DNA of 64,000 bases. Source: Candidatus Forterrea multitransposorum CG_2015-17_Forterrea_25_41 (GTDB lineage Archaea; Iainarchaeota; Iainarchaeia; Iainarchaeales; CSSED10-239). The position numbers and the translations under genes are program-made. The stretch is taken from assembly GCA_009392915.1 (NCBI GenBank), contig CP045477.1, forward strand, positions 256,001-320,000, written 5' to 3'. Numbering within the stretch: position 1 is the first letter of the stretch; every line of letters begins with the position of its first letter. This document shows positions 5,801 through 55,613 of this stretch, piece by piece. Under the pieces are notes generated by a model that was given only the letters and a program-made list of their open reading frames with translations, had not been told where the DNA came from and searched no databases.

Positions 5801-8800
5801 CTTTTGAAATACAAGCTATAAAGTCAAAATATTTTTCTCAGAATGTTTCTTTTACAATCGGAACTGATATTTTAGATGTTTATTCTCAAGAGCAAATATT
5901 ATCTTCTGAAAGTCCACTTGAAGTATTTATTCATAAAACAAATATTAATGGTGAAACTTATTCTTTAACTTTAAAAAACAAAACAAACTATGCTTTAAAA
6001 ATTAATCAATTTAATACTGAAGATTTTTCTTTTAATAAATCTTATTTACTTAATTTAGAGCAAACTGTTAATTATCTTAATAATCAAATAACTTCTCAAG
6101 CAGAAGGTTTTGTAATTCCTGCAAATGAATCTAAAGAAATTGTAATTAAGTTTGCCCCTTCAGATTCTGCAAGAACTCATCCTGTTTCAGAAGATATTTT
6201 AGGTGCAATTACAGGAAATTATTCTTTAAATAATTATGATTATCGTTTTACAATTCCTGTTAAAGCAAAATTTTCTGTTGGAAGTGGTGTTTTATTTGAT
6301 GATTGTTTAGTTGTAACTCAAAGTCCAGGAGAATGGAATACTGTTGTTTCTACAAGTACTCAAACAACTTCTTTTACAATAAAGAATACTTGTCTTTCAA
6401 AAGAAGGAGAAGTCCCAATACCTATTAAAAATGTACAAGCAAAGATATCTTCTCAAGCAGATAGATATGGTGTTTATTTCTTAAACCTTATAGGCCCATC
6501 TTCTTCAAATCAAATACAGTTGTCTGAAAATTACTATAGAGTTGTAATTGATCAAATGGCTCCTGAAGAAGAATATAGAGTTGATTTAACATTTAATACT
6601 AATGGTACAAGATTTGCAGATGTTAAAACAAATATACATCTTAATGCTCAAGTAGAAACTGAAGATGGTTTATCTTTTGTAAATAAAGAACCTAAAGATA
6701 TTTTCTTAAAAACAAATATTTCAATAATGAATCTTAATGATTGTTTTTCATATATTGATCAAAATGGAAAAGTAATTAATTCAGGTGGTCTTTATACTTT
6801 AGAAGGTATTGAAGAAAATGAATTAACTATTAGAAACAATTGTCAAGGAAAAGCTACTTTTAAAATGAATCTTTGTGATGCTTATGATTTAGGTTGTAAT
6901 GATTTAATTATTACAAATACAGATGAAGAAAATAATATTTTAAGATTTTCACTTAACGATTCTGAAAAAACAGTATATATTAAAAAAGATTCAACAAAAG
7001 CACCTGGTGCTTATATTCTTAATAACAGAGTCTCTGTTATAAATAATTTTGAAAGAGAACTTGCATCTTCTTTTGCTCTTTTAAAAATAAATGCAAAAGA
7101 TCCTAATGGTTTATGGATGGAAGATCCTTTTATAGAGATTAATGAAGATAAAGTTTCTGAGATTAAAAGATTATATAATAATAATTTAGAAAAGACTCCT
7201 TGGGATTATGCAAGTTATTATCAAGGAGAAGAAGGTTTTGGAAAATTTATAACAAATATTTATTATACAGGAAATACTTGGAAAAAATCTTTTAATCAAC
7301 ATTGGAGTAGATGTATAGCTGGAGATGATACTTGTTTATTTAACGGGGATAATTCTTTACTTTCAATGAGATTTTTACCAGAAAATCAATTAAGTAATGT
7401 TGGTGCAGAAGGATTAAGTGCAGGTGGTGCAATTGGGATAGGAATTGGTACTGCTGCAATTGTTTCATTAGTTTTAATTATGGCAAAAGTTGCTGTATTA
7501 GGAAGTCTTTTAGGACCTGTCGGTTGGATAGTTGCTGGACTTTCAATTGTTGTTGCATCAATAGCACCATCTTTCTTTTCAGATTATGATGTAGATGTGC
7601 AACCAAGGTTTTTGGATGTTTCTGAAAATAATACTATTGATAATTTAGTTGCTTTAAAAGAAATATCTGTAGATGATTTAAGTGATCAAAAAGAATTAAT
7701 TAATGTATTTGATATTACTGGTGCAAGATATTTTAAATATTTTAATAATGTTATTTTTGCACATGGAAAACTTGCTTCTAAAAAAGAAATTAAAAGTGTA
7801 CTTCCAAAATGTAATGGTATAAATAATTTAGTGCCTGTTGATCAATTTTTAAAAGTATATAATAAACCTCCATTTTGTGATGAAATAACTATAGAAGAAA
7901 CTGAAGATTCTTATATTTATAAAACAAGTTGTAATGGACAAAAATTAAATAGACTTGAATTAAATTTATTCTATAGTGCTTATTCAATATGTAAAAGTGA
8001 TGAAACATATTGGCCAGAACAAGCAGGTATAAAACCTTTACAGTTTAATTTAACTGATGAAATATATAATTTATTAGATAATGATTCTAAAAAATATTAT
8101 TTTAAAAAATATGAATTTAATCCAACTTTAGATGATTCAAATAGCACACAAGATTTAGCTTTTGTAGATTCAGATAGTGTAGGAAATTATAGATTTGGTT
8201 TCTTTTTAACAAAACCTGAAGAAACACCAAATTATGATCTTTCATTACAAGAATGTGTAACTGATACTGGAAGAACTGGAAAAACAGGAGAAGGTGCAGT
8301 TCCAAATATTTCTCTAAATTGGAATTGGGCTGAAACTGATTGTGCACAAACATATTGTGATGCAACTCAATTAACTCAAGATGTTTTAGATAGAATTAAT
8401 GATGCTGAAAAATTAATTTCATCAAATGTTGTTCAATGTCCTATAAGTAATCAAGAACTTTATGACCAAGCATTAAATGGTTCTTATAAAGTAACTGCAG
8501 AACCATCTGATGTTATTAATGAAATACCTGTTGGAAAAGTAGGTATTAATTCTGTAAAATTAGATTCTCAAAATAATAAATTAGCAATAAAAGTAGTTTT
8601 AGAAAACAGATCTGATACACCATCTTCAGGAACTATTGTTATTAGTCTTGATGATAAACAATTAGAATCTATAAAATACAGAGATGTAGCTTCAGGAGAA
8701 TATATTGAAGAAAATATAGATTATCCTGGATCTTATTCAAAAAGTATAACTGTTCCTTCTGGTATTGATAATACTAATGAAATAATTTTTGTTTATAAAG

Positions 8801-13133: not shown

Positions 13134-16100
13134 ATGTCAATATTTAAAAAATCAAGAGACAAAATAGAAGCAGAAAAGCTATATGCTCTTTTATCAGACA
13201 AAACTACAAACTATACTCTAGAGGATATTAAAGAGACTATTAAAAAACAAGGTTATTCTGATAAAGTTTCTTCAATTGTTGTAAAGATGATTACAGATAA
13301 TAAACTTCCTTTAAAAGATTCAGTTAATAAAACAAAAACAAAAGAAGAAGTCTTAAAAGAATTATCAGCTTCTGTTGATAAAAACTTCTCTAAACAAAAT
13401 CCAAAAGATTCTTCAAAAGATTCAAAAAAAGAAGATAAAAATAATCAAAAAGAAAATACAAAAAAACAAGAAGATATTAAAAAAGAAGATTCTAAAAAAC
13501 AAAAAGAAGATCTTAAAAAAACAAAAGAAACAAATTTAAAAAATATTAATAAAGTTCCTTTCTTTACAAAAGTAAAAACTTTCTTTAAAAGAATATATTT
13601 CTTTTTTGAAGATAATTACTATAAGATGGTTGATGGTGTAAGTAAAGTTATACCTCTAAACAAATTAACAGACAAAATAGATAAAGTTTTCCCAAGTTTC
13701 ATATTATTCTTATTAATCTTAGCTTTATTGATATATTTAATACTTTCAGGAAGTTTATCTTTCTCTAAAACTTGGACAGTTGCTGTAGAGGTTTATGACC
13801 CATCTTCTGTACCCTTAAAAGATGTTTCTGTAACTTTAATGCTTAAAGATGAAAATTTTTCAACTTTAAAAACAGATATTTTTGGTGAAGTTATTTTTAG
13901 TGATTTTAAATCTAGAAAACAAAATATTAATTTAATAGCTTCTAAAGATAATTATGATACAGTTGAACATTCCTTTAAATTAAGTAAAAGTAATTTAAGA
14001 CAAAAGTTATATCTTCCAACAGATGTAAATTCTAAGATTGATCCTTCAGAAGAAGAAGTAAGAGAAATTTCTTTTGTTGAAAATAATACTGTTTTAATAA
14101 CAGATTCTGTATTAACTACAAATTTTTCTTGTACTAATGCAGATGTAGAACCTAATCCTACAAGAAAAGTTATTTCTTCAGGAAAGGTAACAGTTACAAC
14201 TTATTCTGGTTGTGGTGCTTTAAGAGTTTCTGTAACTTCAGATGATTTTTCTTCAATTACAAATCAAGTTATAAATTCTTCAAATAAAGTAAATCTTACA
14301 AGAATTAATCTTGATAGAGGTAATTTAGGTTTCTCTGTTAAAAACATATCTGGAAGTTCAATTCCTGGAACAGAAGTTAAAGTTTATAGTTCTTCAAACA
14401 CTACTTTTCCTCATGATACAACCACAACTGATCTTTATGGTTTAGGTGAGTTTAGTTTAGAACCTAAAAGTTATTTTTTAACTTTCTCAAAAGAAGGTTA
14501 TCTAACAAATCCTTTAAAAGGTCCTTTAACTGTTATTAAAAATGATTCTGTAAACACAGATGTAGTTTTATTTACTTTAGATGATCTTTTAGAATTTGAT
14601 TGTTCTGATGATAAATATTCACAATTTTGTATTGCTGATGAAATTGATTGTTTTAATCCAAACTTAAAACCATTTTTAATAAATAATGCTGATGGTTCTT
14701 GTACAATTGGAAGACCAGGTTATATTTCTGTAACTTTAAAAGATGTTAATTCTGGAGAACCTGTATATGCAGATATAACTTTAGATTCAAAATTAAAAGA
14801 ATCTGATCAAAACTTTTCTCTTGGTGAACATATTGCAAGGGATACTAATTTCTATACTTTTAATGTTATTGATTTCTATAATTATAGAGTAAGAGTTTTA
14901 AATACAGAAGAGAGTGGTTATCTTCAACCAGATCCAGTCACTGTAAACGGTATTGATCAAAATATAACAGTTAATTTAGAATATTCTTCTTCCCTTAACT
15001 CAGGAGATATTTCAGTAAATGTTAAGAGTGCAGATATGCCTATCTCAAATGCAAGAGTTTATTTATATAAAGAGTTTGAAGATGATTTTGTTTTAGTAAA
15101 TTCTGATCCATTATTTACAAATCAAAATGGAGATGTTAATTTTTATTCTCAAAGAGCAAATAGAGATTATTATGCTTATGCTTTACATAATGTTTTAGAT
15201 AAACAAGGAACTTCACAAACAGATGATTTAGATGTTAACTCAATACTTGATTTATCAATAGATCTTGAAGATATTCCAAAGATATTAAATCTAAAGGTAA
15301 GTCCAAGTATTTCTTATGATATTAATTTTTATAATTCTTCAGATAATCTTGTAACTGAATATGTAAGAACAGATCTTGAAGATGGAAATTCTCTTTATTA
15401 TTTTACAGGTTCTATAAATAAAGTTTATGCAGTTGTTTCTTCTTCAGGTTATACTACCTATCAAACAGATTATATTACTTTAATACCTGATCAAGAAGTT
15501 TATAAAACAGTTAATCTTTCTACACTTTCTTCTTGTGAAGACTCTAAGTTAGAAATTTTAGGTCTTTATGATGGTTCTGGAGTTTTAGAAATTGATAATA
15601 TTGATTTTGTTGAAAATGATTTAGATAAAGAATACAGATTAAAGTTTAAATATATTTCATGTACAGAAGATGAAGAATACAATCAAGCTACTTTAAGACT
15701 TGGAAGACAAGGTTTAATAGATGATGAATATTTATTCTTTGTTTCAGATCAATTTACTTCTCAAGATATAGATGTTACAAGAGGTTATAAATTTTCACAA
15801 GAACATATACCTGACTTTAATTTTGATCTTTTCAATCTTAATTATTCTCAAGATAGATCTTATGATTATTCTGGTGAAGGTTATAAATGGATTGAAATTG
15901 ATTTTGAAAAATTAAATTCTGATATCTTAGAGTTTTCAACTAACTTTAAGTTCAGAGAAGATTCAATTGTTCCTTTTGAAAACTATGTTTTAAATTATAA
16001 ATCATTTGCAAGTATTTATGATGAACTTTATTCTTTTGATCCTGTTTTAAATGAATCTTGGACAGAGATACCAATCTATCCTAATGGTTATTTTTATGCA

Positions 16101-19100
16101 GAAACAAACAAATATTTAATACCTTTTGAAAATACAGATTATATTTATTCTGTAAAATTAAAAGACTGGAATCAAAATCTTTTAGAAGAATATGCTGGTG
16201 GTTATCCTGTATCTATTAATAATTTTTATAAATATGATCTAAGTTATTTATATTTAAATCAAACAGAAAGAAACGGTAGTGTTTTACAATCTTCTCAATA
16301 TACAAATAATAATTTAGATTATTTAAGTTATGGTTATACTTCATCTTTAGGTAACTCAAGTTCAGGAGATACTCAAAATGCTACAAATAACATGACTTCA
16401 TTTTTAATACTTCCAGATTATAATACTCTTCCAGGTTCAACAGATACTACTATAAATCAAGAAATCTATTATCATATTAATGTTGATGATTATAATTATT
16501 CTTTAGATGATATTAATGCAGAGATTGGTTATTATTTAAATACTTATACTCTTTTAGAGCCAAAAGGTTTTTTTGAAAATACTAATTTTTCAGATTCAAG
16601 TATTATTTCTGATGTTTTAGATGAGTACCCTTTAGTTAATACAAGTATTTATTCTTATTTATCTGATGAAAATTTTATATTTAATATTTCAACTAACTTT
16701 TCAGGAAACAGAATAATTATTGGTGAAAATAATTTAGGTTTTAAAGTTTTAGATAATTATGGTTCTCCAGTTTCAAATGTTTTAATAAAGTATAAAGTTG
16801 ATGGTGATGAGCTTATAACTTTAGGGTCTACAAATGAACAAGGTATGCTTAGTGATCAAAATATTTTTATAAATCTTTCAGATATTGGAAAAAATATTAA
16901 TTTTGTATTTTTGTTTTCTCCAGAGTTTGGTTTCCTTGCAAACACAGTTGTAAGAAACAAAGAAATCTATTCTGGATTTTCAATAGTTCCAGAAGATATT
17001 AATTTATCTGCAAGTTATTATATTTTAAATGATCAAGTTATAATTGATCAAGTTTCTACAAATAATTATAATCTTTTAAAAGAAACAAATTATTCAAGCA
17101 CTTTAGAAGAAATTGATTTTGTTGGAGAATCAAGTTTGTTTAATCTTGATTCTATTAAAAATAAAATGATTGAAGATAATAATCTTGTAAAAGATTTATT
17201 AGAAGGAGAAAATGAAATTATTACAAGTCTTTTCTTAAACAATAATATTTCTCAATCAACAAATCTTTTAGGTTATTATAGAAATGAAATTGATATTAAT
17301 AATTCTTTAACACAATTATTAGATATTAATTCAAATGTTGAAATTATTAATCTAGGTTCAATTAACTATGATTTTAATCTTGAAAAACATTTTATGAAAG
17401 GACTATTAATTGAAAACAATAATGTTTCTCTTGAGCTTATAAAAGAAATAAACGAATTAATTACTTTAGATTTAAATCTTTTATCAGATAACTCTCAAGC
17501 AACATTTGATAGTATTTCTGTAGAGCTTCCTGAATTTTTAGATCTTGAAGAATTTAATGAAGGTTATTCTTCTTTAGTTGGAGAGTCTTTAACTTCTGAT
17601 GGTTTAATAATTCCTCTTAACTTTAAGATTAATAACTCCTATTCAGGTTCTCTTCCAACTCCAAAGGAAGATATTAATTTAACTTTTAATGTTTATCTTG
17701 ATGATAAATTAGTTTCTTTTAATAAAATAATTTCAATAAAAGTATATTCTAAAGATGACATCTTTTTAATAGAGTCTGAAGGAGACTTACAGATCTATTG
17801 TACTGTTGAAAATTGTTCTCAAAAAAAATCTTTTACTTTTAAAAAATTAGTTAATAATTATATATTAAATCTAAATAAAGAAATTGAAATCAATGAGATG
17901 GATTTAATTGAAGTTTCAAATCTTTTAAGTAATATTAATTTTATTGACCTTTCTGAAAAGAACAGAGCTTTATCTTTTAGTGCCCTATATAATTCTGTTA
18001 ACGAAGAAAATAAACAAGGTAATTTTGATTTAATTTTTAATATTAATATTTTAAATGATTCTTTTAATATAGAAATACCTATTGATTATTTAATTATAAA
18101 ATATTTAGAAGAAGAAACCATAAGTGAAATTACTTTTAATTCCTGTATTGGTGTTGGTGGTCAAGAAAGCAGTAGTGATTTATTTATTTTAGGTTATTGT
18201 CAAGATACCCAAGATACTTGTAAAACAGGAGAATCTGCTGTTCCAAAAGTATTTTTTAATTGGGCAGAATCTGACCTTTCAACAGATTATGACGGAAAAA
18301 CCTGGAATAATGTCTGTATTGGTAATAGCCAAGATACAATGTCAAGTAAATATGCTTGTGATTCCTTACAAATGTTAATTTCAATTTTTAATAAAATTGA
18401 TAATGGTGTAGAAGAATCATTCTATATTAAACTTTTAAATGATGGAATTTCTGATGCTCTTTTAAAAGATTTTATAAATTATAATACACTTTACTTAGGT
18501 TATGATAAACCTAGTGAAGAGATCTTTTCAGAAGATGCAGTTGATGATGGTTTATTTAAAATAACAATTAATAATTCTCCAGAAATTAAAATTTTCCAAC
18601 CTGGTATCTATAAAGTTTTAGTATATGGTGATGATTCAGGAAATGCATATATGGGAAGAGAAGAAGATCAAATGATAGATATACGTCTAGAAAAGGTAAG
18701 TGATCTTCCTGCATCAGAGATAAGTGTATTCCACTATATGCCATTTAATGGTAATTTAGGTTTAGATGGTACAAGAGAGGGTTACGGTATTAAAAATCAA
18801 GATAGTGATGTTGCTCAATTAACTCAAGATGTTGATATTAATTATATTGATGTTATAGATGAAATAATTCAACTATCTTTAACTAATAATAATCTAGAAA
18901 CTTCTCACTTAACACAAACATTAAAGTCTGAAGGAAAAATACTTGAATTAAATAAATATGATAGTGTTGTTGAAATGATTTATTCTCCTTCATATCCAGT
19001 ACCAATATATTCTCATGTAGCATGTATTGATAAAGATGATTTTAGTTATAATCTTTATGAAAATAATAATGCTTTAGATAATATTATAGGTGGATCATTT

Positions 19101-19577
19101 ATTGATTGGAATTTTAATAATACCATAAGATCAGATGTTAAAACAACAGTAACAGGAGATGTTACTAGATACGTATTTAACAATAATAATTTAGAAGGTT
19201 CTTTAAACCTTAATTCAATGTTATATCTTCCTGTAAAATTAAATATTGATTCTTTAAAACTTAAAACCACAGAGTTTGCAAATAATAAAAATACAACTTT
19301 ATTTACAAAGAATAATTTTACAGGTGTAAATCAAGCAGATTTAGTTTTCTCTGAAGATGATTATGTTCTTGGAAATGATTTAATAAACCTTAATACTATT
19401 AAAGGTTTATTTAATTTTATAAGTCAAGAAAAAGCATGTATTGAAAAATCTATTGATAACACAACTATTAAATGGATTGATGAAAAAGTTAATTTTACAG
19501 AACAAGAATTACTTGATATAAATAGTAATATTCCTTCTGATTATTCTTGTCTTGAAGGAGAGGTAATCATAGATTAA
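13134..19577 (+). CDS. Giant (2147 aa) membrane-anchored surface protein. A ~185-aa Lys/Glu-rich N-terminal region precedes a single TM; beta-sandwich repeats and the shared C-terminal module follow.
   Basis: ORF begins 23 nt after the previous gene. KE-rich low-complexity N-terminus. TM segment FPSFILFLLILALLIYLILSG. Repeats of the ...KEGYLTNP / ...DxxGxVxF type. C-terminal motifs GYCQDTQDTCKTGESAVPKVFFNW, FHYMPFNGNLGLDGTREGYGI, EKACIEKSIDN. The true start could instead be the internal Met just before the TM (MVDGVSKV...). Confidence 0.8.
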   Translation: MSIFKKSRDKIEAEKLYALLSDKTTNYTLEDIKETIKKQGYSDKVSSIVVKMITDNKLPLKDSVNKTKTKEEVLKELSASVDKNFSKQNPKDSSKDSKKEDKNNQKENTKKQEDIKKEDSKKQKEDLKKTKETNLKNINKVPFFTKVKTFFKRIYFFFEDNYYKMVDGVSKVIPLNKLTDKIDKVFPSFILFLLILALLIYLILSGSLSFSKTWTVAVEVYDPSSVPLKDVSVTLMLKDENFSTLKTDIFGEVIFSDFKSRKQNINLIASKDNYDTVEHSFKLSKSNLRQKLYLPTDVNSKIDPSEEEVREISFVENNTVLITDSVLTTNFSCTNADVEPNPTRKVISSGKVTVTTYSGCGALRVSVTSDDFSSITNQVINSSNKVNLTRINLDRGNLGFSVKNISGSSIPGTEVKVYSSSNTTFPHDTTTTDLYGLGEFSLEPKSYFLTFSKEGYLTNPLKGPLTVIKNDSVNTDVVLFTLDDLLEFDCSDDKYSQFCIADEIDCFNPNLKPFLINNADGSCTIGRPGYISVTLKDVNSGEPVYADITLDSKLKESDQNFSLGEHIARDTNFYTFNVIDFYNYRVRVLNTEESGYLQPDPVTVNGIDQNITVNLEYSSSLNSGDISVNVKSADMPISNARVYLYKEFEDDFVLVNSDPLFTNQNGDVNFYSQRANRDYYAYALHNVLDKQGTSQTDDLDVNSILDLSIDLEDIPKILNLKVSPSISYDINFYNSSDNLVTEYVRTDLEDGNSLYYFTGSINKVYAVVSSSGYTTYQTDYITLIPDQEVYKTVNLSTLSSCEDSKLEILGLYDGSGVLEIDNIDFVENDLDKEYRLKFKYISCTEDEEYNQATLRLGRQGLIDDEYLFFVSDQFTSQDIDVTRGYKFSQEHIPDFNFDLFNLNYSQDRSYDYSGEGYKWIEIDFEKLNSDILEFSTNFKFREDSIVPFENYVLNYKSFASIYDELYSFDPVLNESWTEIPIYPNGYFYAETNKYLIPFENTDYIYSVKLKDWNQNLLEEYAGGYPVSINNFYKYDLSYLYLNQTERNGSVLQSSQYTNNNLDYLSYGYTSSLGNSSSGDTQNATNNMTSFLILPDYNTLPGSTDTTINQEIYYHINVDDYNYSLDDINAEIGYYLNTYTLLEPKGFFENTNFSDSSIISDVLDEYPLVNTSIYSYLSDENFIFNISTNFSGNRIIIGENNLGFKVLDNYGSPVSNVLIKYKVDGDELITLGSTNEQGMLSDQNIFINLSDIGKNINFVFLFSPEFGFLANTVVRNKEIYSGFSIVPEDINLSASYYILNDQVIIDQVSTNNYNLLKETNYSSTLEEIDFVGESSLFNLDSIKNKMIEDNNLVKDLLEGENEIITSLFLNNNISQSTNLLGYYRNEIDINNSLTQLLDINSNVEIINLGSINYDFNLEKHFMKGLLIENNNVSLELIKEINELITLDLNLLSDNSQATFDSISVELPEFLDLEEFNEGYSSLVGESLTSDGLIIPLNFKINNSYSGSLPTPKEDINLTFNVYLDDKLVSFNKIISIKVYSKDDIFLIESEGDLQIYCTVENCSQKKSFTFKKLVNNYILNLNKEIEINEMDLIEVSNLLSNINFIDLSEKNRALSFSALYNSVNEENKQGNFDLIFNINILNDSFNIEIPIDYLIIKYLEEETISEITFNSCIGVGGQESSSDLFILGYCQDTQDTCKTGESAVPKVFFNWAESDLSTDYDGKTWNNVCIGNSQDTMSSKYACDSLQMLISIFNKIDNGVEESFYIKLLNDGISDALLKDFINYNTLYLGYDKPSEEIFSEDAVDDGLFKITINNSPEIKIFQPGIYKVLVYGDDSGNAYMGREEDQMIDIRLEKVSDLPASEISVFHYMPFNGNLGLDGTREGYGIKNQDSDVAQLTQDVDINYIDVIDEIIQLSLTNNNLETSHLTQTLKSEGKILELNKYDSVVEMIYSPSYPVPIYSHVACIDKDDFSYNLYENNNALDNIIGGSFIDWNFNNTIRSDVKTTVTGDVTRYVFNNNNLEGSLNLNSMLYLPVKLNIDSLKLKTTEFANNKNTTLFTKNNFTGVNQADLVFSEDDYVLGNDLINLNTIKGLFNFISQEKACIEKSIDNTTIKWIDEKVNFTEQELLDINSNIPSDYSCLEGEVIID

Positions 19578-20314: not shown

Positions 20315-20388
20315 GGATCTATGGTGTAGCCTGGATAGCACGTAGGCTTGCGGAGCCTAAAACTTGGGTTCAAATCCCAATAGATCCG
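20315..20388 (+). tRNA. tRNA-Arg (anticodon GCG), 74 nt, no encoded CCA.
   Basis: Hand-folded cloverleaf. Acceptor GGATCTA/TAGATCC with discriminator G. D-stem GTGT/GCAC. Anticodon stem TAGGC/GCCTA with loop TTGCGGA. T-arm TTGGG-TTCAAAT-CCCAA. Confidence 0.7.
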
Positions 20389-21198: not shown

Positions 21199-21271
21199 GG
21201 TCATAATAGTGTAGTGGTTAGCATAGGAGTCTGTGGAGCTTCTGGCCCGGGTTCAAATCCCGGTTATGACC
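21199..21271 (+). tRNA. tRNA-His (anticodon GTG) with a genome-encoded G-1 pairing to discriminator C73. No encoded CCA.
   Basis: G(-1)+GTCATAA acceptor pairs with TTATGAC+C. D-stem GTGT/GCAT. Anticodon loop CTGTGGA. T-arm CCGGG-TTCAAAT-CCCGG. Confidence 0.75.
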
Positions 21272-21453
21272 CTTTTTAACCTTCCTTTTAAGAAAAGAAA
21301 CGTTAACGAAAGAAAAGTAAACTTTCTTTTAGGTAAAGAAACGGTATAACAAAAGAAAAGTAAAAAGAGATGTTAAAATGAAAAAAAAAATAAAAACATT
21401 TACTTTTTATATGTTTTTGTAATTAAAATATAATATAGAAAAAAAGATTAAAT

Positions 21454-50491: not shown

Positions 50492-50845
50492 ATGATAAAT
50501 ATTACAAACTCTCTATTTCCGTTTAGATTAAACATTAATGAAAAAAACCCAATAGAATTAACTTTAAAAATAAAAAATATGGGTGTTGAAGATAAATTTA
50601 TAAGTTATGATGTAATTTTAGAAAGAACTCTTTCTTTTGATAAAAGTGGTCTTAAAAAATCAGTTTCAATAAGACACGGAACTTTAAAACCAGATGAAAC
50701 TATATCTGAAAAATTAGACATTTTTCCTTTCCAAGGTATTAAAGCAGGAGACCATAGAGTTTTAGTTATTGTTAACGAACATTATTTAGATTATACTTCT
50801 TTAAAACAAAAAACAGAGAAAGTAATTATCATTAGATCCTTCTAA
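50492..50845 (+). CDS. Hypothetical protein (117 aa).
   Basis: ORF with an upstream AAGGTGAA RBS-like motif. No motif recognised. Confidence 0.4.
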   Translation: MINITNSLFPFRLNINEKNPIELTLKIKNMGVEDKFISYDVILERTLSFDKSGLKKSVSIRHGTLKPDETISEKLDIFPFQGIKAGDHRVLVIVNEHYLDYTSLKQKTEKVIIIRSF

Positions 50846-50899: not shown

Positions 50900-52078
50900 A
50901 TGTCCTTTATATATACTTGTCTTGAAAAATTATCTATTTTTCAAAAAAAATATAAATATTTAATTTTATTAATAACTATACTTATAACTATTTTCTTTAT
51001 ATTAGGTGTTCCAAAAATACAAATGGAAACTGATTTTTCAAAAATGTCTCCTTCAGAACTTGATATCTTTAAATTAAATGAAAAAATAACAGATAAGTTT
51101 GGAGGTTCTGATGTTGTTGTAATTATTTTAAAATATAATGATTCTTTTAATTCAAGTTTTAAAGAATATGATATCAGAAATATTGATGTTATAAATTATT
51201 TAGAAGAACTAGAAACTGAATTTAGAAAAGAAAGTCAAGTTAACACAGTAATTTCTGCATCAACTTATCTTTCTATGTTTTCTTTAAACTCAAATGAAGA
51301 TGTAATTAATTCTATTGATTTACTGCCAGGAATATCAGATTTTTTTAGTAAAGATTATAAAACAACAATTTTGTATTTAACTTCTGATTTATCTGGAAGT
51401 CAAGATAAAACAATTGCTTTTACTGAAATGATTAATGAAAAAATAAATCTTGTAAACAAACCAACTGGTATTGATGTTATGGTTACAGGAACAGCTCCTG
51501 TAGGTGTTACAGTTTTAGATATTTTAGGTAAAGATGCTGTTAAAACATTAATTTATGCGATTATTATTATATTATTTTTATTATTTATTACAGAAGCTTC
51601 TTTTTCAAGAGGTTTTTTAGTATTTTCTCCAATATTTTTAGGTGTTATTTGGACTATTGGAACAATGGGTTGGCTTTCAATTAAACTTTCAGTTGCAACT
51701 GTTGGAATTGGTGCAATGATTTTAGGTTTAGGTGTAGAGTATGGAGTTTTTATGACTTCAAGATACAGAGAAGAAAGAAATAAAGGAAAAACACAAGAAG
51801 AATCCTTAAAAGTTACTGTTCCTTCAATAGGTTCTTCAATTTTAGGTTCTGGCCTTACAACTATTGTTGGTTTCTTAGCATTAACTTTTTCAATTATGCC
51901 AGTTTTAAAAGATCTTGGTAATTCTCTTGCAATTGGAATTGGTTTTAGTTTATTTATTGCAATTTTTATTTCTCCAAGTCTTATAATTCTCTTTGAAGAC
52001 TTTACTTTTTGGTTCTCTAAAAAGATGCATGATACTTATAAAAATATCACTGATAAACAAGGAAGGTTGATAAAATGA
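50900..52078 (+). CDS. RND-superfamily (MMPL/SecDF-like) half-size membrane protein: 1 TM, a large extracytoplasmic loop, then 5 TM.
   Basis: N-terminal TM LILLITILITIFFILG. C-terminal TM bundle GLGVEYGVFMTSRYREE...LTTIVGFLALTFS is typical of the RND/MMPL/SecDF transmembrane domain. Confidence 0.65.
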   Translation: MSFIYTCLEKLSIFQKKYKYLILLITILITIFFILGVPKIQMETDFSKMSPSELDIFKLNEKITDKFGGSDVVVIILKYNDSFNSSFKEYDIRNIDVINYLEELETEFRKESQVNTVISASTYLSMFSLNSNEDVINSIDLLPGISDFFSKDYKTTILYLTSDLSGSQDKTIAFTEMINEKINLVNKPTGIDVMVTGTAPVGVTVLDILGKDAVKTLIYAIIIILFLLFITEASFSRGFLVFSPIFLGVIWTIGTMGWLSIKLSVATVGIGAMILGLGVEYGVFMTSRYREERNKGKTQEESLKVTVPSIGSSILGSGLTTIVGFLALTFSIMPVLKDLGNSLAIGIGFSLFIAIFISPSLIILFEDFTFWFSKKMHDTYKNITDKQGRLIK

Positions 52079-53301
52079 GTTGGTATGATAAACCTTTGAG
52101 CAGGTATTCTTATTTTGTATCTCATAGACCTTATCTTGTAATACTAATTGTTATTATACTTATTATTTTTGCAATGTATTTTTCATCAAAAGTAGAATAT
52201 GTTAATTTTAGTAATTCTGATATGGTTCCTGATAATTATGAAGTTGTAAAAGCATTTAATCTTTTAGAAGATACTTTTGGAAATCCATCAAGTATTTTAA
52301 TTGCAATTGAACTTGATGATTCTTTTCAAGGTTATAATAAAGTAAATGATCTTAGAGATTATAAAGTTATTGAATATATTGATGTAATTTCTCAATATAT
52401 TGAAAACACAGATTATATTTTGGAAGTTTCAAGTATTTCAACAGCTGTAAAAGAAGTTAATAATGGAATAATTCCTAAATCTAATCTAGAAATTAATAAA
52501 CTTATTAGTAATAATTTTATTTTTGAAAATATAATTAGTAAAGATTATTCAATGACATTAATTAGAATTTCTTTAACTGATGATTTCAGTGAAGAAGATA
52601 ATGCTGAAGAAGTTGTTTTTAATCTTGAAAAAATAATTTCATCAATAGATGACCCTAATATAGGTCTTAATGTTAATGTAGCAGGAGAAATTTCAGCAGG
52701 ACCAATTGTTGAAAGAGAAATTGGACCTGATATGCAAAAGACAAGTAGTTATTCTATATATGGAATAATTATTTTATTAATATTTATATTTGTAGTTGGA
52801 GAAGTAATTTCTTCATTTAATAAAAAACAATCAAAAAAAATAAAAATTTTAACAGTTCTTGGTTCAATAAGGTTTGGACTTATTCCTCTTTCAACAATAT
52901 TAATTGGAGTAATTTGGACTTTTGGATATCTTGGACTTGTTAAAATGGGTCTTTCTTCAATTACTTCAGGAGTAATTTCAATGATTATGGGTATTGGAAT
53001 TGATTTTGGTATCCAGACAGTTATGAGATTTAAACAAGAAATAAAAGATAAAACTCCTGAAAAAGCAATGGAAGAAACCATGAAAAATGTTTTTATTCCA
53101 ATGGCAACAACAACTATTGCTGCATTAATTGGTTTTAAAGCAATGTCAATGGGAGAATTAACTTTACTTCAAGATTTAGGGAAAATGATGAGTTATGGAG
53201 TTACTGCTTGTTTTTTTGCAGCAATAACATTTGTTCCAGCAATTTTAGTTGTTTTGGAAAAATGGATTTTATCTTTAAAAGTAAAATTTAAAAAGAAATG
53301 A
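52075..53301 (+). CDS. RND-superfamily (MMPL/SecDF-like) half-size membrane protein, second of an adjacent pair (ATGA overlap).
   Basis: N-terminal TM LVILIVIILIIFAMYF. C-terminal 5-TM region with GIGIDFGIQTVMRFKQE...ATTTIAALIGF. Confidence 0.65.
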   Translation: MSWYDKPLSRYSYFVSHRPYLVILIVIILIIFAMYFSSKVEYVNFSNSDMVPDNYEVVKAFNLLEDTFGNPSSILIAIELDDSFQGYNKVNDLRDYKVIEYIDVISQYIENTDYILEVSSISTAVKEVNNGIIPKSNLEINKLISNNFIFENIISKDYSMTLIRISLTDDFSEEDNAEEVVFNLEKIISSIDDPNIGLNVNVAGEISAGPIVEREIGPDMQKTSSYSIYGIIILLIFIFVVGEVISSFNKKQSKKIKILTVLGSIRFGLIPLSTILIGVIWTFGYLGLVKMGLSSITSGVISMIMGIGIDFGIQTVMRFKQEIKDKTPEKAMEETMKNVFIPMATTTIAALIGFKAMSMGELTLLQDLGKMMSYGVTACFFAAITFVPAILVVLEKWILSLKVKFKKK

Positions 53302-53332
53302 AATATTTTTAAAAAAAAAGGTGTGATTAAAT

Positions 53333-54583
53333 ATGAATAAAAAATATATGCTTATAGTTTTGGTTTTATTAACAATGATTTTAATAAAGCCAATTTATGC
53401 AAATGATTTAGATGTAGTTAAATTATCTGCAAATTTGCAAAATCAAGATCCAGATCCTGCAGTTCCTGGAGAATACTTAGAACTAAGATTTAATGTTTAT
53501 AAAACAGGTAATAATTCTGCAGAAAATATTCAATTTTACTTAGATGTTGAACATCCTTTATCATTTGATTTATCAGATACTCCTGATAGAAATATTTCTT
53601 TATGGAAAGGTCAATCAGGAGATGATTGGTATTATACTCTTTACTATAAAGTTTTAGTTGATTCTTTAGCTTTAGAAGGAGATTATGAAATTTCATTAAG
53701 ATATAAATATAATGATATAGATGTATGGAATATTGAAAAATTTAATATTAGAGTTGATAATAAAGAAGTCCCTAATTTTGTTTTTGGAAATTTATTAACA
53801 ACTCCTAGAAAACTTTTAAGTGGTCAAGAAGAAGCAAAAATAGATATTGATTTATTAAATATTGGAAAAGGGGATGCAGAAAATGTAATTCTAGAAGTAA
53901 ATCTTCCAGAAGGGTTTAATCCTACATATGCATATTCAGATAGAATTAATTTAGGGAATATTGATGCTTCTCAAAATAAAACTGGATCAATATATCTTGA
54001 TATTGATGATGAAATCAAATCAGGAATATATCAAGCTAAAGTTAAGGTAAAATATATTGAAGAAAGCGATTCTAAAAAAGAATTAAAAGAAAAAGAAATG
54101 ATTTTAGAAATTCCTGTTAAAGCAAAACCATATCTTAAAGTTACAAGTCAAGAAGTTTTAAATGAAACAAAAACTATATTTCCTGGACAAACTATTGACA
54201 TTAAGATAAATGTTAAAAACTTTGGAGATAAAGATGCAGAATCAGTTTCTTTAAGAGTTTTAAAAGATTCTTCTCATCCTTTTGATTTAGTTGAAAAATC
54301 TGATTTTATAGGTAATTTAGAATCTTTGCAAGAAGGTGAGGCTGTAATATCTATAGAAGTTGATCCTAATGCAAATTTAAAAGAATATAAATTAAATGTA
54401 GAAATTAGATCTATATCTGAAAATACAGTATTTATTGATGATGATTCAATTATTTTAAAAGTTGTTTCTGAAGATAAAAATAAAAATAATTTATTGATTC
54501 CTATTTTAGTAGTCTTATTTTTATTAGCTGGTTTGATTTATTATATATCAATTAAGAAAAAAAATAAAAAAGGAAAAAAATAA
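53333..54583 (+). CDS. Secreted surface protein with 3-4 CARDB-like repeats and a C-terminal TM anchor plus Lys-rich tail.
   Basis: Signal-peptide-like MLIVLVLLTMILIKPIYA. Repeats NxGxxxAENVxLxVxLP (YKTGNNSAENIQFYLDV, NIGKGDAENVILEVNLPEGF, NFGDKDAESVSLRVL). C-terminal LLIPILVVLFLLAGLIYYISIKKKNKKGKK. Confidence 0.6.
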   Translation: MNKKYMLIVLVLLTMILIKPIYANDLDVVKLSANLQNQDPDPAVPGEYLELRFNVYKTGNNSAENIQFYLDVEHPLSFDLSDTPDRNISLWKGQSGDDWYYTLYYKVLVDSLALEGDYEISLRYKYNDIDVWNIEKFNIRVDNKEVPNFVFGNLLTTPRKLLSGQEEAKIDIDLLNIGKGDAENVILEVNLPEGFNPTYAYSDRINLGNIDASQNKTGSIYLDIDDEIKSGIYQAKVKVKYIEESDSKKELKEKEMILEIPVKAKPYLKVTSQEVLNETKTIFPGQTIDIKINVKNFGDKDAESVSLRVLKDSSHPFDLVEKSDFIGNLESLQEGEAVISIEVDPNANLKEYKLNVEIRSISENTVFIDDDSIILKVVSEDKNKNNLLIPILVVLFLLAGLIYYISIKKKNKKGKK

Positions 54584-54593
54584 GTGATATTAT

Positions 54594-54920
54594 ATGTTTT
54601 CACATCAATTAAAAATAACTAAGAGTAGATTATATTTTGCTCTTACTTTTATTTTTGTTCTTCTTTTAATTGGTACTTTATTATTTAGTAATATAGAAGA
54701 ATGGTCTTTTGTAGATTCTTTTTATTTCTCTACAGCAACTTTAACAACTGTTGGGTATGGAGATTTAGTTCCTACTCATAATTTAAGTAAGATATTAACT
54801 TCAATATATACTCTTTTAGGTGTAGGTACATTCTTGTATTCTATAGGTATAGTTGCAGAATTTTATTTCTATAAGAGATTTACAATACTAAATAAAAAAA
54901 TAGAAAAAAGAAAGAAGTAG
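54594..54920 (+). CDS. Minimal two-TM potassium channel (108 aa) with a TVGYGD selectivity filter.
   Basis: TM1 LYFALTFIFVLLLIGTLLF. Pore helix plus filter FYFSTATLTTVGYGDLVP. TM2 ILTSIYTLLGVGTFLYSIGIVAEFYF. Confidence 0.8.
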   Translation: MFSHQLKITKSRLYFALTFIFVLLLIGTLLFSNIEEWSFVDSFYFSTATLTTVGYGDLVPTHNLSKILTSIYTLLGVGTFLYSIGIVAEFYFYKRFTILNKKIEKRKK

Positions 54921-54923
54921 AAT

Positions 54924-55613
54924 TTACTTCTTTTTAACTTCTTTTCTTTTTGTAATATAGGTTTCCATAAGTTTACTTGAATAATTCTTTACAGATCCAC
55001 TTAAACCTATACCAATTGCAATTGCGAAAGCTAAAACTACTCCACCTAATATTATTAGAAGTATAGCTTCAATAAATTGTATTTGTACACCTATTTGTCT
55101 TAAAGCAATATTTAAAATTAATATTATGATGATTGCTTGAACAATTTCTGATATTATTTTTGAAAATTTGTGATCTTTTGAAACATGTATACTTCTTGCA
55201 ACAATTTCTGAAAGAACAAGTCCTACAATTGTTAATATTATTGCAAATATTAAATGTGGTATCCACATTGCAAATTTTGTTAATAAATCAGTTAAAACAT
55301 TTATTTTTATTAAACTTGCAGCTGGAGCTAAGAATACTATGAATATACCCCATAAAATTAATTGTTTAATAATTTTTGAAAGTTTAATATGTAATAATAC
55401 GTTTGAAAAATCATTTTTTTTTACCCAATTATCAATTTTCCATTTAGTGATAATTTTGTAAACTATGTGAGCAACTAAAAGACCTATTAGATAACCTATA
55501 ATTATTACAACCAATGCTCCAATAATTCCAGGAATATTTTGAACAATAGATTGCCAAATTGCTTCTAATGGGTTTAATGTAGCTTGCCCAACTTCAACTA
55601 GTGTGCTAACCAT
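54924..55613 (-). CDS. Polytopic membrane protein (229 aa), possibly related to the conserved TM-helix family linked to mechanosensitive channels.
   Basis: At least 5 hydrophobic helices. N-terminal pattern ...NIPGIIGALVVIIIGYLIGLLVAHIVYKII resembles the conserved TM_helix repeat of MscS-like proteins (weak match). Confidence 0.4.
   Translation of the reverse strand: MVSTLVEVGQATLNPLEAIWQSIVQNIPGIIGALVVIIIGYLIGLLVAHIVYKIITKWKIDNWVKKNDFSNVLLHIKLSKIIKQLILWGIFIVFLAPAASLIKINVLTDLLTKFAMWIPHLIFAIILTIVGLVLSEIVARSIHVSKDHKFSKIISEIVQAIIIILILNIALRQIGVQIQFIEAILLIILGGVVLAFAIAIGIGLSGSVKNYSSKLMETYITKRKEVKKK

What the first reader, a model, noticed from the sequence alone, without database searches (positions are those of the whole stretch)
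54594..54920. Minimal 108-aa two-TM K+ channel with a canonical TVGYGD filter and no regulatory domain
The protein comprises only TM1, a pore helix, the TTVGYGD selectivity filter, TM2, and a short basic tail. It has no RCK/TrkA, voltage-sensor or cyclic-nucleotide domains. Such stripped-down KcsA/Kir-like channels are rare in archaea. The gene sits between a CARDB-like surface protein and a divergently oriented membrane protein. It may be gated by a partner, or by the basic C-terminal tail (RFTILNKKIEKRKK).
Basis: seen in the sequence. Interest (0 to 1): 0.55.

Follow-up and report, generated by a model that had tools for sequence, protein, structure and literature searches.

The report
Pore-only potassium channel, DPANN archaeon
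The 108-residue gene is a real, intact, bare-pore potassium channel from a tiny-genome (DPANN) archaeon, but such channels are common in these archaea and in ultra-small bacteria, so it is an ordinary new member of a known family.

Summary
The ORF at 54594-54920 (+) is real. It is 108 aa, starts with ATG, follows an SD-like GTGAT, and has an in-frame stop two codons upstream. It matches Pfam Ion_trans_2 (E 1.7e-19) and carries TTVGYGD. The AlphaFold2 model (pLDDT 95) superposes on NaK2K and MthK pores at 1.0-1.4 A. It is not a fragment: homologues have the same size, dN/dS is about 0.07-0.3, a convergent gene starts 3 nt downstream, and no RCK-like ORF was detected in the window.

The rarity claim fails. 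At least 110 clusters of 70-189 aa channel-only homologues exist. Of 80 GTDB loci examined, 40 carry short (200 aa or less) channel ORFs, 23 of them archaeal (mostly DPANN) and the rest mostly CPR bacteria. NCBI already names them "potassium channel family protein".

The protein is closer to NaK and the MthK pore than to KcsA, Kir or Kcv. The neighbouring membrane gene is convergent, not divergent, and is MscS-like (PF05552). In the Iainarchaeota-like clade the channel recurs beside this gene and an MMPL-MMPL-CARDB block, but one relative keeps the block and lacks the channel.

Most likely it is a homotetrameric K+-selective pore with intrinsic gating, serving K+ uptake and membrane-potential control. 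Verdict: new member of a known kind, low to moderate interest.

The parts
54584..54588 (+). Shine-Dalgarno-like GTGAT, 5 nt upstream of the ATG. It lies inside the 10-nt gap after the CARDB gene, so the two genes are probably co-transcribed.
   Evidence: Read. Motif enrichment at gene starts is 13/37 against 2.2% background.
54594..54920 (+). Complete CDS of the 108-aa pore-only K+ channel subunit (Ion_trans_2).
54594..54629 (+). Residues 1-12, a short basic cytoplasmic N-terminus (net +3). In the model it is helical and continuous with TM1.
54630..54689 (+). Residues 13-32, outer transmembrane helix TM1.
   Evidence: Hydropathy; AF2 helix 2-34.
54702..54743 (+). Residues 37-50, pore helix with the invariant aromatic pair Y44-F45. 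The turret (NIEE, residues 33-36) is very short.
   Evidence: AF2 helix 39-51; invariant columns; alignment A2.
54744..54764 (+). Residues 51-57, selectivity filter T-T-V-G-Y-G-D.
   Evidence: Read. T51, T52, G54, G56 and D57 are invariant in 84 homologues. 102 of 110 homologues have TVGYGD.
54780..54872 (+). Residues 63-93, inner helix TM2. It has the hinge glycine G76, the cavity Phe F80, and I84/A88/F92 at the positions of the KcsA bundle-crossing residues. An aromatic run, F90-Y93, sits at the cytoplasmic end.
   Evidence: AF2 helix 63-107; alignment A2; column counts.
54873..54917 (+). Residues 94-108, basic tail KRFTILNKKIEKRKK (net +7). It is predicted as a helical continuation of TM2.
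54924..55613 (-). Convergent 229-aa MscS-like membrane protein (two PF05552 repeats, no PF00924 core). It is the most persistent neighbour of the channel within the clade.
53333..54583 (+). 416-aa CARDB/DUF11 surface protein. Its N-terminus is hydrophobic and signal-like, and it ends in a C-terminal TM anchor. The gene ends 10 nt before the channel ATG.
50900..53301 (+). Two overlapping MMPL/RND-type half-transporter genes (392 and 408 aa). Together with the CARDB gene they form a block that recurs upstream of the channel in relatives.

Best explanation
The gene encodes a complete, functional, pore-only K+ channel subunit of the NaK/MthK-pore type (Pfam Ion_trans_2). The host is a very AT-rich (25% GC) DPANN archaeon related to 'Candidatus Iainarchaeum', assembled in contigs of 0.66-0.69 Mb.

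Shown here:
- The ORF is intact, under purifying selection and native in composition.
- It has every sequence hallmark of a K+-selective pore: TM1, a pore helix with an aromatic pair, TTVGYGD, GDLxP, a hinge glycine and a long TM2.
- Its predicted fold superposes on solved NaK2K and MthK pores.
- It has no ligand- or voltage-sensing domain.
- It belongs to a large family of channel-only proteins of about 90-190 aa in DPANN archaea and CPR bacteria.

Inferred from established knowledge of K+ channels:
- Four subunits form the pore, with both termini in the cytoplasm (positive-inside rule: N-terminus +3, tail +7).
- The four-site TVGYG filter makes it K+ selective. It is in effect a natural equivalent of the engineered NaK2K.
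- Gating is intrinsic to the pore. One gate would be at the filter. It should inactivate little, because A48 occupies the KcsA E71 position. The other gate would be a hydrophobic inner-helix bundle crossing (I84/A88/F92, pivoting at G76).
- The basic helical tail sits at the membrane surface, where anionic lipids could bias opening.
- Physiologically, in a cell with a reduced transporter repertoire, it lets K+ equilibrate with the membrane potential. That gives electrophoretic K+ uptake and a clamp on the potential. It lies in a loosely conserved envelope and osmotic gene neighbourhood (MMPL pair, CARDB protein, MscS-like channel).
For: - ORF and start site.
- Family: PF07885 at E 1.7e-19, and no other domain.
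- PDB sequence search: NaK chains match at 2e-12 as a single domain. The top-ranked K2P hits (1e-15) are sums of two domains of about 1e-6 each.
- Structure: AF2 pLDDT 95.3, helices 2-34, 39-51 and 63-107. Foldseek gives NaK2K at 1.0-1.1 A over 76-80 columns and the MthK pore at 1.4 A over 78.
- Conservation: Y44, F45, T51, T52, G54, G56, D57 and P60 are invariant in 84 homologues. G76 is present in 70 of 84. Position 92 is hydrophobic (F/L/V/I) in 71 of 84. The tail is net positive in 71 of 84.
- Selection: 10 nt differences from the sister strain, of which one is nonsynonymous and one changes only the stop codon (dN/dS 0.07). Against relatives of 54-61% identity, dN/dS is 0.19-0.33.
- Abundance: the exact protein is on record in 97 blocks of the assembly collection (the unit reported by the look-up of encoding contigs); in 52 of them the longest contig carrying it is 0.2-1 Mb.
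- Archaeal host: split RNAP B, A'/A'', L7Ae, S12, S7 and aEF-2 lie in the window. The GTDB hit is 'Candidatus ainarchaeum sp.' at 98%.
- No RCK/Trk/Kdp/Kup genes appear in the window annotations or with an ad hoc RCK HMM.
- An isolated MthK pore without its gating ring still conducts and shows fast intrinsic gating (PMC2154359). Viral pore-only channels gate autonomously (PMC12332018). A K+ channel can rescue the K+-uptake-deficient E. coli strain LB2003 (PMC2853561).
Against: - No functional data exist for this protein or any close homologue. Tetramer assembly, selectivity, open probability and lipid dependence are all inferred.
- Only about 9% of the genome (64 kb of roughly 0.66-0.69 Mb) was inspected. 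A soluble regulator or other K+ transporters elsewhere cannot be excluded.
- The aromatic FYFY run and the tail sequence are conserved only in the close clade, so any specific gating role is weakly supported.
- One relative (L097) keeps the surrounding gene block but has no channel. In the GTDB representative MAG (L008) codon 3 is a stop. The channel may therefore be dispensable.
- The monomer model cannot show whether the inner bundle is closed.
Confidence: 0.8

Rival explanations
1. The pore is only the membrane part of a two-component channel. A separately encoded soluble regulator (an RCK/KTN protein like KtrA/TrkA, or another ligand sensor) elsewhere in the genome docks on the basic C-terminal helix and gates it.
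For: RCK proteins encoded separately from their pore do exist. Locus L063 has a channel gene followed by a stand-alone RCK ORF, and L045 has a 165-aa RCK ORF 5 kb from a short channel. The MthK TM2 end (LLEFLINRE) aligns with AEFYFYKRF here. About 91% of the genome was not examined.
Against: No RCK-like ORF was found in the 64-kb window in any frame, nor in the Pfam annotations. None lies next to any of the roughly 23 archaeal short channels. The tail is only 15 aa here, and its sequence and length vary across the family (1-99 aa), which fits a conserved docking site poorly.
Confidence: 0.1
2. The channel works as one half of a dedicated two-gene osmotic module with the convergent MscS-like protein. 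The channel takes K+ up and the MscS-like protein provides emergency release. The pair is co-regulated or even physically associated.
For: The PF05552 gene is adjacent and convergent in the window/L004, L090, L092 and L093. It is 1.7 kb away in L091 and co-directional, one gene away, in L096, although the flanking genes differ. The two K-rich tails place oligo-T tracts just after each other's stop codon.
Against: The pairing is confined to one clade. No such neighbour exists in 79 other GTDB loci or in L094 and L095. L097 keeps the MscS-like gene and the MMPL-CARDB block but has no channel. Convergent genes are not co-transcribed. Much of the surrounding synteny is also inherited, so proximity may simply reflect shared ancestry. 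The mechanosensitive function of the neighbour is itself unproven: it lacks PF00924, and its fold match to the MscS TM region has E above 1.
Confidence: 0.15
3. It is a non-selective monovalent cation channel like NaK rather than a K+-selective one.
For: NaK is the closest solved single-domain relative in both sequence and fold. The size and the short turret are the same.
Against: NaK owes its non-selectivity to TVGDGN. This protein has TVGYGD, exactly the two changes (D66Y, N68D) that define the K+-selective NaK2K mutants, which top the fold search. The filter is invariant across the family.
Confidence: 0.04
4. It is a remnant: the 5' fragment of an RCK-type channel, a decaying pseudogene, or a recently acquired virus-type (Kcv-like) gene.
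For: The GTDB representative MAG copy (L008) has a TAA at codon 3. The gene is absent in L097. Its size is close to that of viral channels.
Against: Homologues have the same length with their own stop codons. dN/dS is 0.07-0.33. A convergent gene begins 3 nt after the stop, and no RCK-like frame lies downstream. Gene GC is 23.9% against 25.1% for the window. Viral channels are only 19-28% identical, with a best Foldseek E of 2e-3. The L008 MAG contig has only 5.4x coverage, and all its other differences are synonymous, N33S or the stop-codon change.
Confidence: 0.02

Closest known systems
NaK channel of Bacillus cereus and its K+-selective engineered form NaK2K (PDB 2AHY, 3E83, 3OUF, 3T4D, 8CTX)
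   Same: Two-TM pore-only subunit of about 100-110 aa with no cytoplasmic domain, a very short turret and a Y-F aromatic pair in the pore helix. It is the best single-domain sequence match (E 2e-12; 37% identity over 79 aa) and the best fold match (1.0-1.1 A). The filter is identical to NaK2K.
   Different: Wild-type NaK has TVGDGN and is non-selective, whereas this protein natively has TVGYGD. It comes from an archaeal DPANN host. It has a 15-aa basic helical tail and an FYFY run at the end of TM2. The N-terminal interfacial helix is shorter.
MthK pore (Methanothermobacter; PDB 3LDC, 6U9P)
   Same: Archaeal two-TM pore with TVGYGD. Identity is 34% over 85 aa (E 3e-13). The hinge motif LGxGT-F and the E-F near the end of TM2 align, and the fold matches at 1.4 A over 78 residues. 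The isolated MthK pore conducts without its ring (PMC2154359).
   Different: MthK carries a C-terminal RCK domain and a Ca2+-binding gating ring. This protein ends 15 residues after TM2, and no RCK ORF was detected in the window.
Viral miniature channels Kcv (PBCV-1, 94 aa; ATCV-1, 82 aa) and other giant-virus channels
   Same: Natural stand-alone pore modules without sensor domains, of similar size. BFVD fold matches reach TM-score 0.8.
   Different: Identity is only 19-28%, and the BLASTP alignment with Kcv is restricted to 35 residues around the filter. Kcv has a long turret and a TM2 too short for a bundle crossing. Here TM2 plus tail form a 45-residue helix. The gene is cellular, with conserved synteny and native composition.
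KcsA (Streptomyces lividans)
   Same: Two-TM channel with TVGYGD-L-x-P and a hinge Gly. F103, T107, A111 and V115 align with F80, I84, A88 and F92 (KcsA numbering from memory).
   Different: Identity is 22% overall, and BLASTP aligns only 43 residues. The pH-sensor residues, the E71 (Ala here), the long turret and the C-terminal four-helix bundle of about 40 residues are all missing.
K2P (TASK-1/TASK-3) pore domains
   Same: Same Pfam family. They are the top PDB phmmer hits (1e-15). Many top hits in the 1.8-billion-protein library are proteins with 2 or 4 pore domains.
   Different: Their rank comes from summing two domains of about 1e-6 each. K2P subunits are tandem pores forming dimers with a cap domain, whereas this is a single pore domain.

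Membership tests
K+ channel pore family (Pfam PF07885 Ion_trans_2; VIC superfamily) | Profile match above the curated threshold | tested here: met
   69.9 bits against a cut-off of 22.5, E 1.7e-19, residues 19-91.
K+ channel pore family (Pfam PF07885 Ion_trans_2; VIC superfamily) | Signature selectivity filter T-x-G-[YF]-G-D | tested here: met
   T52-V53-G54-Y55-G56-D57 at 54747-54764. It is invariant or nearly so in 84 homologues.
K+ channel pore family (Pfam PF07885 Ion_trans_2; VIC superfamily) | TM1, re-entrant pore helix, filter, TM2 fold | tested here: met
   AF2 pLDDT 95.3 with helices 2-34, 39-51 and 63-107. Superposes at 1.0-1.4 A on NaK2K and MthK pores.
K+ channel pore family (Pfam PF07885 Ion_trans_2; VIC superfamily) | Gating-hinge glycine about 20 residues after the filter | tested here: met
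   G76 aligns with the hinge Gly of MthK and KcsA and is present in 70 of 84 homologues.
K+ channel pore family (Pfam PF07885 Ion_trans_2; VIC superfamily) | Homotetramer that conducts K+ selectively | not testable with these tools
   Only monomer prediction was available, and there is no electrophysiology.
RCK-gated two-TM channels (MthK type) | C-terminal RCK/KTN domain (TrkA_N/TrkA_C), or an RCK made from an internal start | tested here: not met
   The protein ends 15 aa after TM2. There is no Pfam RCK hit. The ad hoc RCK HMM finds nothing in any window frame, while it recovers 13 RCK ORFs in the control loci.
Kir / KirBac | Large beta-rich cytoplasmic domain (Pfam IRK) and a slide helix | tested here: not met
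   No IRK hit, and at 108 aa there is no room for the domain.
KcsA-type | Closest relationship to KcsA, the E71-D80 pair and a C-terminal four-helix bundle | tested here: not met
   22% identity. BLASTP aligns only 43 residues (E 4e-6), against 2e-13 for NaK. Ala is at the E71 position, and the tail is 15 aa.
NaK (non-selective) | Filter TVGDGN | tested here: not met
   The filter is TVGYGD.
Viral Kcv | Encoded in a virus genome, with a TM2 too short for a bundle crossing | tested here: not met
   The gene lies in a cellular context with RNAP and ribosomal genes. TM2 plus tail form the helix 63-107. Viral matches are 19-28% identical.

The most novel reading that the evidence does not exclude
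The 90-190 aa channel-only proteins of DPANN archaea and CPR bacteria would be the cellular counterpart of viral Kcv. They would be self-sufficient K+ pores with a built-in gate and would serve as the only K+ pathway of ultra-small, host-dependent cells. In Iainarchaeota they would be embedded in a conserved envelope and osmotic cluster (TrmB, MMPL pair, CARDB protein, K+ channel, 138-aa membrane protein, MscS-like channel). If so, they would be the simplest natural cellular K+ homeostasis system, and a cellular candidate for the ancestral 2TM pore module that the reviews so far illustrate with viral proteins.
Probability: 0.15. Interest if true: 0.45.

Novelty: new member of a known kind. Interest (0 to 1): 0.25.

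Why it matters
The finding matters little on its own. The family, fold and filter are textbook, and the databases already label these proteins as potassium channel family proteins.

It has modest value in two ways:
- It documents that pore-only K+ channels are a regular component of DPANN and CPR genomes. A 2026 survey of minimal prokaryotic genomes lists only RCK-containing 2TM channels among the K+ channel architectures of such organisms (bioRxiv 10.64898/2026.03.26.714534). A 2025 review of stand-alone pore modules draws its natural examples from viruses (PMC12332018).
- A 108-aa natural protein with the NaK2K filter and a confidently predicted fold would be a convenient minimal cellular model for studying intrinsic pore gating and lipid modulation.

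Tried and rejected
- Frameshifted fragment of a longer RCK channel: rejected. Homologues have the same length, a convergent gene follows 3 nt after the stop, and there are no RCK frames.
- Viral origin: rejected (and synteny).
- K2P as closest relative: rejected. Its top rank is an artefact of summing two domain scores.
- The 117-aa ORF (50492-50845), which precedes the channel directly in L090 and L092, as a partner: rejected. It has no Pfam hit and is absent from L091 and all other loci.
- My interim idea that MMPL-MMPL-CARDB is a window-specific insertion: rejected. The same block, with the channel, was found in L096, and without it in L097.
- The sigma-70 promoter and intrinsic-terminator scan was uninformative for an archaeon, with counts equal to the shuffled controls.
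- Rfam found only three tRNAs, far from the gene.
- The PDB sequence and fold searches for the MscS-like neighbour gave only weak, partial MscS transmembrane matches.
- Literature searches found no paper describing DPANN pore-only channels specifically.
Full report
**1. The observation**

The window contains an ORF at 54594..54920 on the + strand, with an ATG start, 108 codons and a TAG stop. The reading frame is closed by TGA at 54585-54587, two codons upstream, so the ATG is the only possible start. The preceding CARDB gene ends at 54583. The 10-nt gap holds GTGAT five nucleotides before the ATG. SD-like motifs of this kind (GGTGA, GTGAT, AGGTG, GAGGT, GGAGG) precede 13 of 37 gene starts in the window, against 2.2% of random 17-mers.

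The protein reads MFSHQLKITKSR / LYFALTFIFVLLLIGTLLFS / NIEE / WSFVDSFYFSTATL / TTVGYGD / LVPTHN / LSKILTSIYTLLGVGTFLYSIGIVAEFYFY / KRFTILNKKIEKRKK. The filter is encoded at 54744-54764.

Pfam gives Ion_trans_2 (PF07885) at E 1.7e-19 over residues 19-91 and nothing else. NCBIfam gives only sub-threshold matches to the pore regions of longer channels. One descriptive error needs correcting: the next gene (54924..55613, minus strand) is convergent, with its stop codon 3 nt from the channel's stop. It is not divergent.

**2. Is the gene whole and alive?**

- The closest database protein (P0001, 99% identical) is also 108 aa. Relatives at 54-63% identity are 105-124 aa. All 110 hits keep T[VI]G[YF]GD, and their median length is 120 aa.
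- Against the sister strain (L004) there are 10 nucleotide differences. One is nonsynonymous and one changes only the stop codon, giving dN/dS of about 0.07. Against L090, L092 and L091, dN/dS is 0.19-0.33, with dS near saturation.
- Gene GC is 23.9%, against 25.1% for the window.
- The exact protein is on record in 97 blocks of the assembly collection (the unit reported by the look-up of encoding contigs). In 52 of them the longest contig carrying it is 0.2-1 Mb. The longest two contigs are 663,621 and 690,388 bp.
- An ad hoc RCK profile recovered 13 RCK ORFs in control loci. It found nothing in any stop-to-stop frame of the window.

**3. The organism**

The window carries split RNA polymerase B, A' and A'', together with L7Ae, S12, S7, aEF-2 and an archaeal-type D-Tyr-tRNA deacylase. 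The GTDB scan returned a 98% identical copy in 'Candidatus ainarchaeum sp. STF1_257'. The genus Candidatus Iainarchaeum belongs to Iainarchaeota, kingdom Nanobdellati, the DPANN group. The host is thus a DPANN archaeon with a genome probably not much larger than 0.7 Mb.

**4. Anatomy and fold**

Hydropathy and charge fit the universal topology, with both termini inside: the N-terminus is +3, the tail +7, and the outer loops are acidic. AlphaFold2, run on an 84-sequence alignment, gives pLDDT 95.3 and pTM 0.81. It predicts helices 2-34 (N-terminus plus TM1), 39-51 (pore helix) and 63-107 (TM2 running straight into the tail).

Foldseek against the PDB is led by NaK2K and NaK (1.0-1.1 A over 76-80 columns) and the MthK pore (1.4 A over 78). 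In the PDB sequence search the top rows are K2P channels (1e-15). Those scores are sums of two domains of about 1e-6 each, so the best single-domain match is NaK at 2e-12.

| Reference | Identity | Aligned length | E-value |
|---|---|---|---|
| NaK | 37% | 79 aa | 2e-13 |
| MthK | 34% | 85 aa | 3e-13 |
| Kcv | 37% | 35 aa | 6e-7 |
| KcsA | 30% | 43 aa | 4e-6 |

In the multiple alignment, with reference numbering from memory:

- G76 falls on the hinge glycine of MthK and KcsA.
- F80 falls on KcsA F103.
- I84, A88 and F92 fall on the KcsA bundle-crossing residues T107, A111 and V115.
- E89-F90 falls on the E-F of MthK's LLEFLINRE.
- A48 occupies the KcsA E71 position.
- The aromatic pair Y44-F45 is the Y-F of NaK.

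Across 84 homologues, Y44, F45, T51, T52, G54, G56, D57 and P60 are invariant. G76 is kept in 70 of 84. Position 92 is F, L, V or I in 71 of 84. The segment after TM2 is highly charged (median 47% charged residues), net positive in 71 of 84, but variable in length (1-99 aa, median 30) and in sequence.

**5. How common is it?**

The claim that such channels are rare in archaea does not hold.

- One search found 110 clusters of channel-only proteins. Source names include 'potassium channel family protein' from Woesearchaeota, Pacearchaeota, Nanoarchaeota, Thermoplasmatota, unclassified archaea and Patescibacteria.
- The exhaustive HMMER search found 13,819 clusters (50% identity) at E of 1e-3 or better, and 3,086 at 1e-10 or better. 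The top 150 mix multi-pore proteins with 21 single-domain proteins of 105-182 aa.
- In GTDB species representatives, more than 600 stretches encode TTVGYGDLV, and 512 were confirmed as relatives. Of the 80 kept, 40 have a channel ORF of 200 aa or less (upper-bound lengths). Of those, 23 are archaeal, from six DPANN lineages plus Thermoplasmata and Methanosarcinales. The other 17 are bacterial, including several CPR groups.

The 2005 survey of microbial K+ channels already noted that the 2TM motif is the commonest in prokaryotes and that most, but not all, carry extra domains (PMC2234077).

**6. Surroundings and possible partners**

The window order is as follows: a 117-aa ORF, MMPL half-transporter, MMPL half-transporter, the CARDB surface protein, the channel, then, convergent, a 229-aa protein with two PF05552 (MS_channel_1st_1) repeats. 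After that comes an ABC transporter with two ABC-2 permeases.

The PF05552 protein matches the C-terminal part of NCBIfam 'msc' below threshold and lacks the MscS core domain PF00924. Its AF2 model is all-helical (pLDDT 76), and only about 88 residues superpose on the transmembrane part of E. coli MscS, at non-significant E. Distant members of its small family (24 clusters) do carry PF00924.

Among relatives the arrangements are:

| Locus | Arrangement |
|---|---|
| L090 (61% channel identity) | Channel and MscS-like gene adjacent and convergent |
| L092 (54%) | Same |
| L093 (61%) | Same, with different flanking genes |
| L091 | MscS-like gene 1.7 kb from the channel, three unrelated genes between |
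| L096 | TrmB, MMPL, MMPL, CARDB, channel (157 aa, 52% identity), a 138-aa membrane ORF and MscS-like gene, all on one strand |
| L097 | Same block, but no channel |
| L095 | The 138-aa ORF family lies convergent right after a 151-aa channel |

Outside this clade neither neighbour accompanies the short channels. The channel therefore sits in a loosely conserved envelope and osmotic neighbourhood. No neighbour is obligate, and none looks like a gating subunit. No RCK ORF lies next to any archaeal short channel.

**7. The most likely mechanism**

The gene, family, fold, completeness, selection and lack of sensor domains are shown here. The rest is inferred from established knowledge of K+ channels.

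- *Assembly.* Four subunits assemble into a pore.
- *Selectivity.* The TVGYG filter, with its Y and D, gives four K+ sites and K+ selectivity. These are the two residues whose introduction converts NaK into the K+-selective NaK2K.
- *Gating.* The channel gates by itself. The isolated MthK pore conducts and flickers without its ring (PMC2154359), and viral pore modules show both filter and inner-gate behaviour (PMC12332018).
- *Gates.* TM2 is long enough, unlike in Kcv, to form a bundle crossing lined by I84/A88/F92 and hinged at G76. Ala at the E71 position argues against strong C-type inactivation.
- *Tail.* The basic tail, predicted as a continuation of TM2, should lie at the inner membrane surface. 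There anionic lipids could stabilise one gate state. This role is speculative.
- *Physiology.* A K+ channel lets K+ follow the membrane potential. Heterologous K+ channels rescue K+-uptake-deficient E. coli (PMC2853561). In a cell with a genome of roughly 0.7 Mb this would be a cheap route for K+ accumulation and for setting the membrane potential. It may be complemented by the neighbouring putative mechanosensitive release valve.

**8. Rivals**

| Rival | Confidence | Status |
|---|---|---|
| Two-component channel with a soluble regulator encoded elsewhere | about 0.1 | Cannot be excluded, because 91% of the genome was not seen. Nothing points to it. |
| Dedicated channel plus MscS-like module | about 0.15 | Not exclusive with the main explanation. 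Has clade-limited support, weakened by L097. |
| NaK-like non-selectivity | about 0.04 | Contradicted by the filter. |
| Fragment, pseudogene or viral origin | about 0.02 | Contradicted by length conservation, selection, composition and synteny. |

The only hints of dispensability are the codon-3 TAA in the low-coverage MAG L008 and the absence of the channel in L097.

**9. Comparison and novelty**

The protein works like a pore-only version of NaK or MthK and is a member of the Ion_trans_2 K+ channel family. All the sequence and fold criteria that could be tested are met. It is not a member of the RCK-gated, Kir, KcsA-type, NaK (non-selective) or viral Kcv groups, because each fails a defining feature. 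It is a new member of a known kind.

The one mildly notable point is that recent overviews do not discuss the abundant cellular pore-only channels of DPANN and CPR organisms. One covers minimal channel repertoires (bioRxiv 10.64898/2026.03.26.714534) and the other stand-alone pore modules (PMC12332018). Within the library searched I found no functional study of them.

Interest is 0.25.

Noticed in passing
window 54924-55613 (-): A 229-aa membrane protein with two PF05552 'MS_channel_1st_1' repeats but no MscS core (PF00924). The AF2 model is all-helical (pLDDT 76). Only about 88 residues resemble the MscS transmembrane region, at non-significant E. The family is small (24 clusters), almost confined to the Iainarchaeota-like clade, and better conserved than the channel (about 63-83% identity). 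It may be a minimal MscS-type channel or something else.
   Followed up: partly
window 50900-54583 (+); L096 188-3887; L097 626-4345: A conserved three-gene block: two overlapping MMPL/RND half-transporter genes (392 and 408 aa, 26% identical to each other) followed by a CARDB/DUF11 surface protein with a C-terminal TM anchor. In L096 and L097 the block is preceded by a TrmB-family regulator, which is not the case in the window. It may be an export system for a surface protein or lipid.
   Followed up: partly
L008 4006-4332 (GTDB representative 'Candidatus ainarchaeum sp. STF1_257', contig coverage 5.4x): The 98%-identical copy of the channel gene has TCA changed to TAA at codon 3. The other 17 nucleotide differences are synonymous, the N33S change, or a change of the stop codon. 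This is either an assembly error or a very recent inactivation.
   Followed up: partly
L096 4462-4878; L097 4433-4852; L095 647-1063 (-): A family of 138-139 aa hydrophobic ORFs without a Pfam match. It lies next to the channel in L096 and L095, and in the channel's place in L097. It is absent from the window (tblastn).
   Followed up: partly
window 54890-54960: The lysine-rich C-terminal tails of the two convergent genes are encoded by A-runs. Each gene therefore places oligo-T tracts, the archaeal terminator signal, immediately downstream of the other gene's stop codon, inside the partner's coding sequence.
   Followed up: no
window 2848-10248 and 13134-19577 (+): Two giant ORFs (2466 and 2147 aa) with only faint Big_1 and CarboxypepD_reg hits, separated by ORFs of 120 aa and about 805 aa without Pfam matches. 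They are probably giant surface proteins of the kind common in DPANN genomes.
   Followed up: no
window about 20508 onward (+) (L089 20187-20363): A bacterial-type HU gene (PF00216 Bac_DNA_binding, 89 aa) lies in this archaeal genome, between tRNA-Arg (20315-20388) and tRNA-His (21200-21272).
   Followed up: no
whole window: GC content is extremely low (25.1%). SD-like GGTGAT-type motifs lie upstream of about a third of the genes. Nearly all genes in the first 48 kb are on the + strand.
   Followed up: partly
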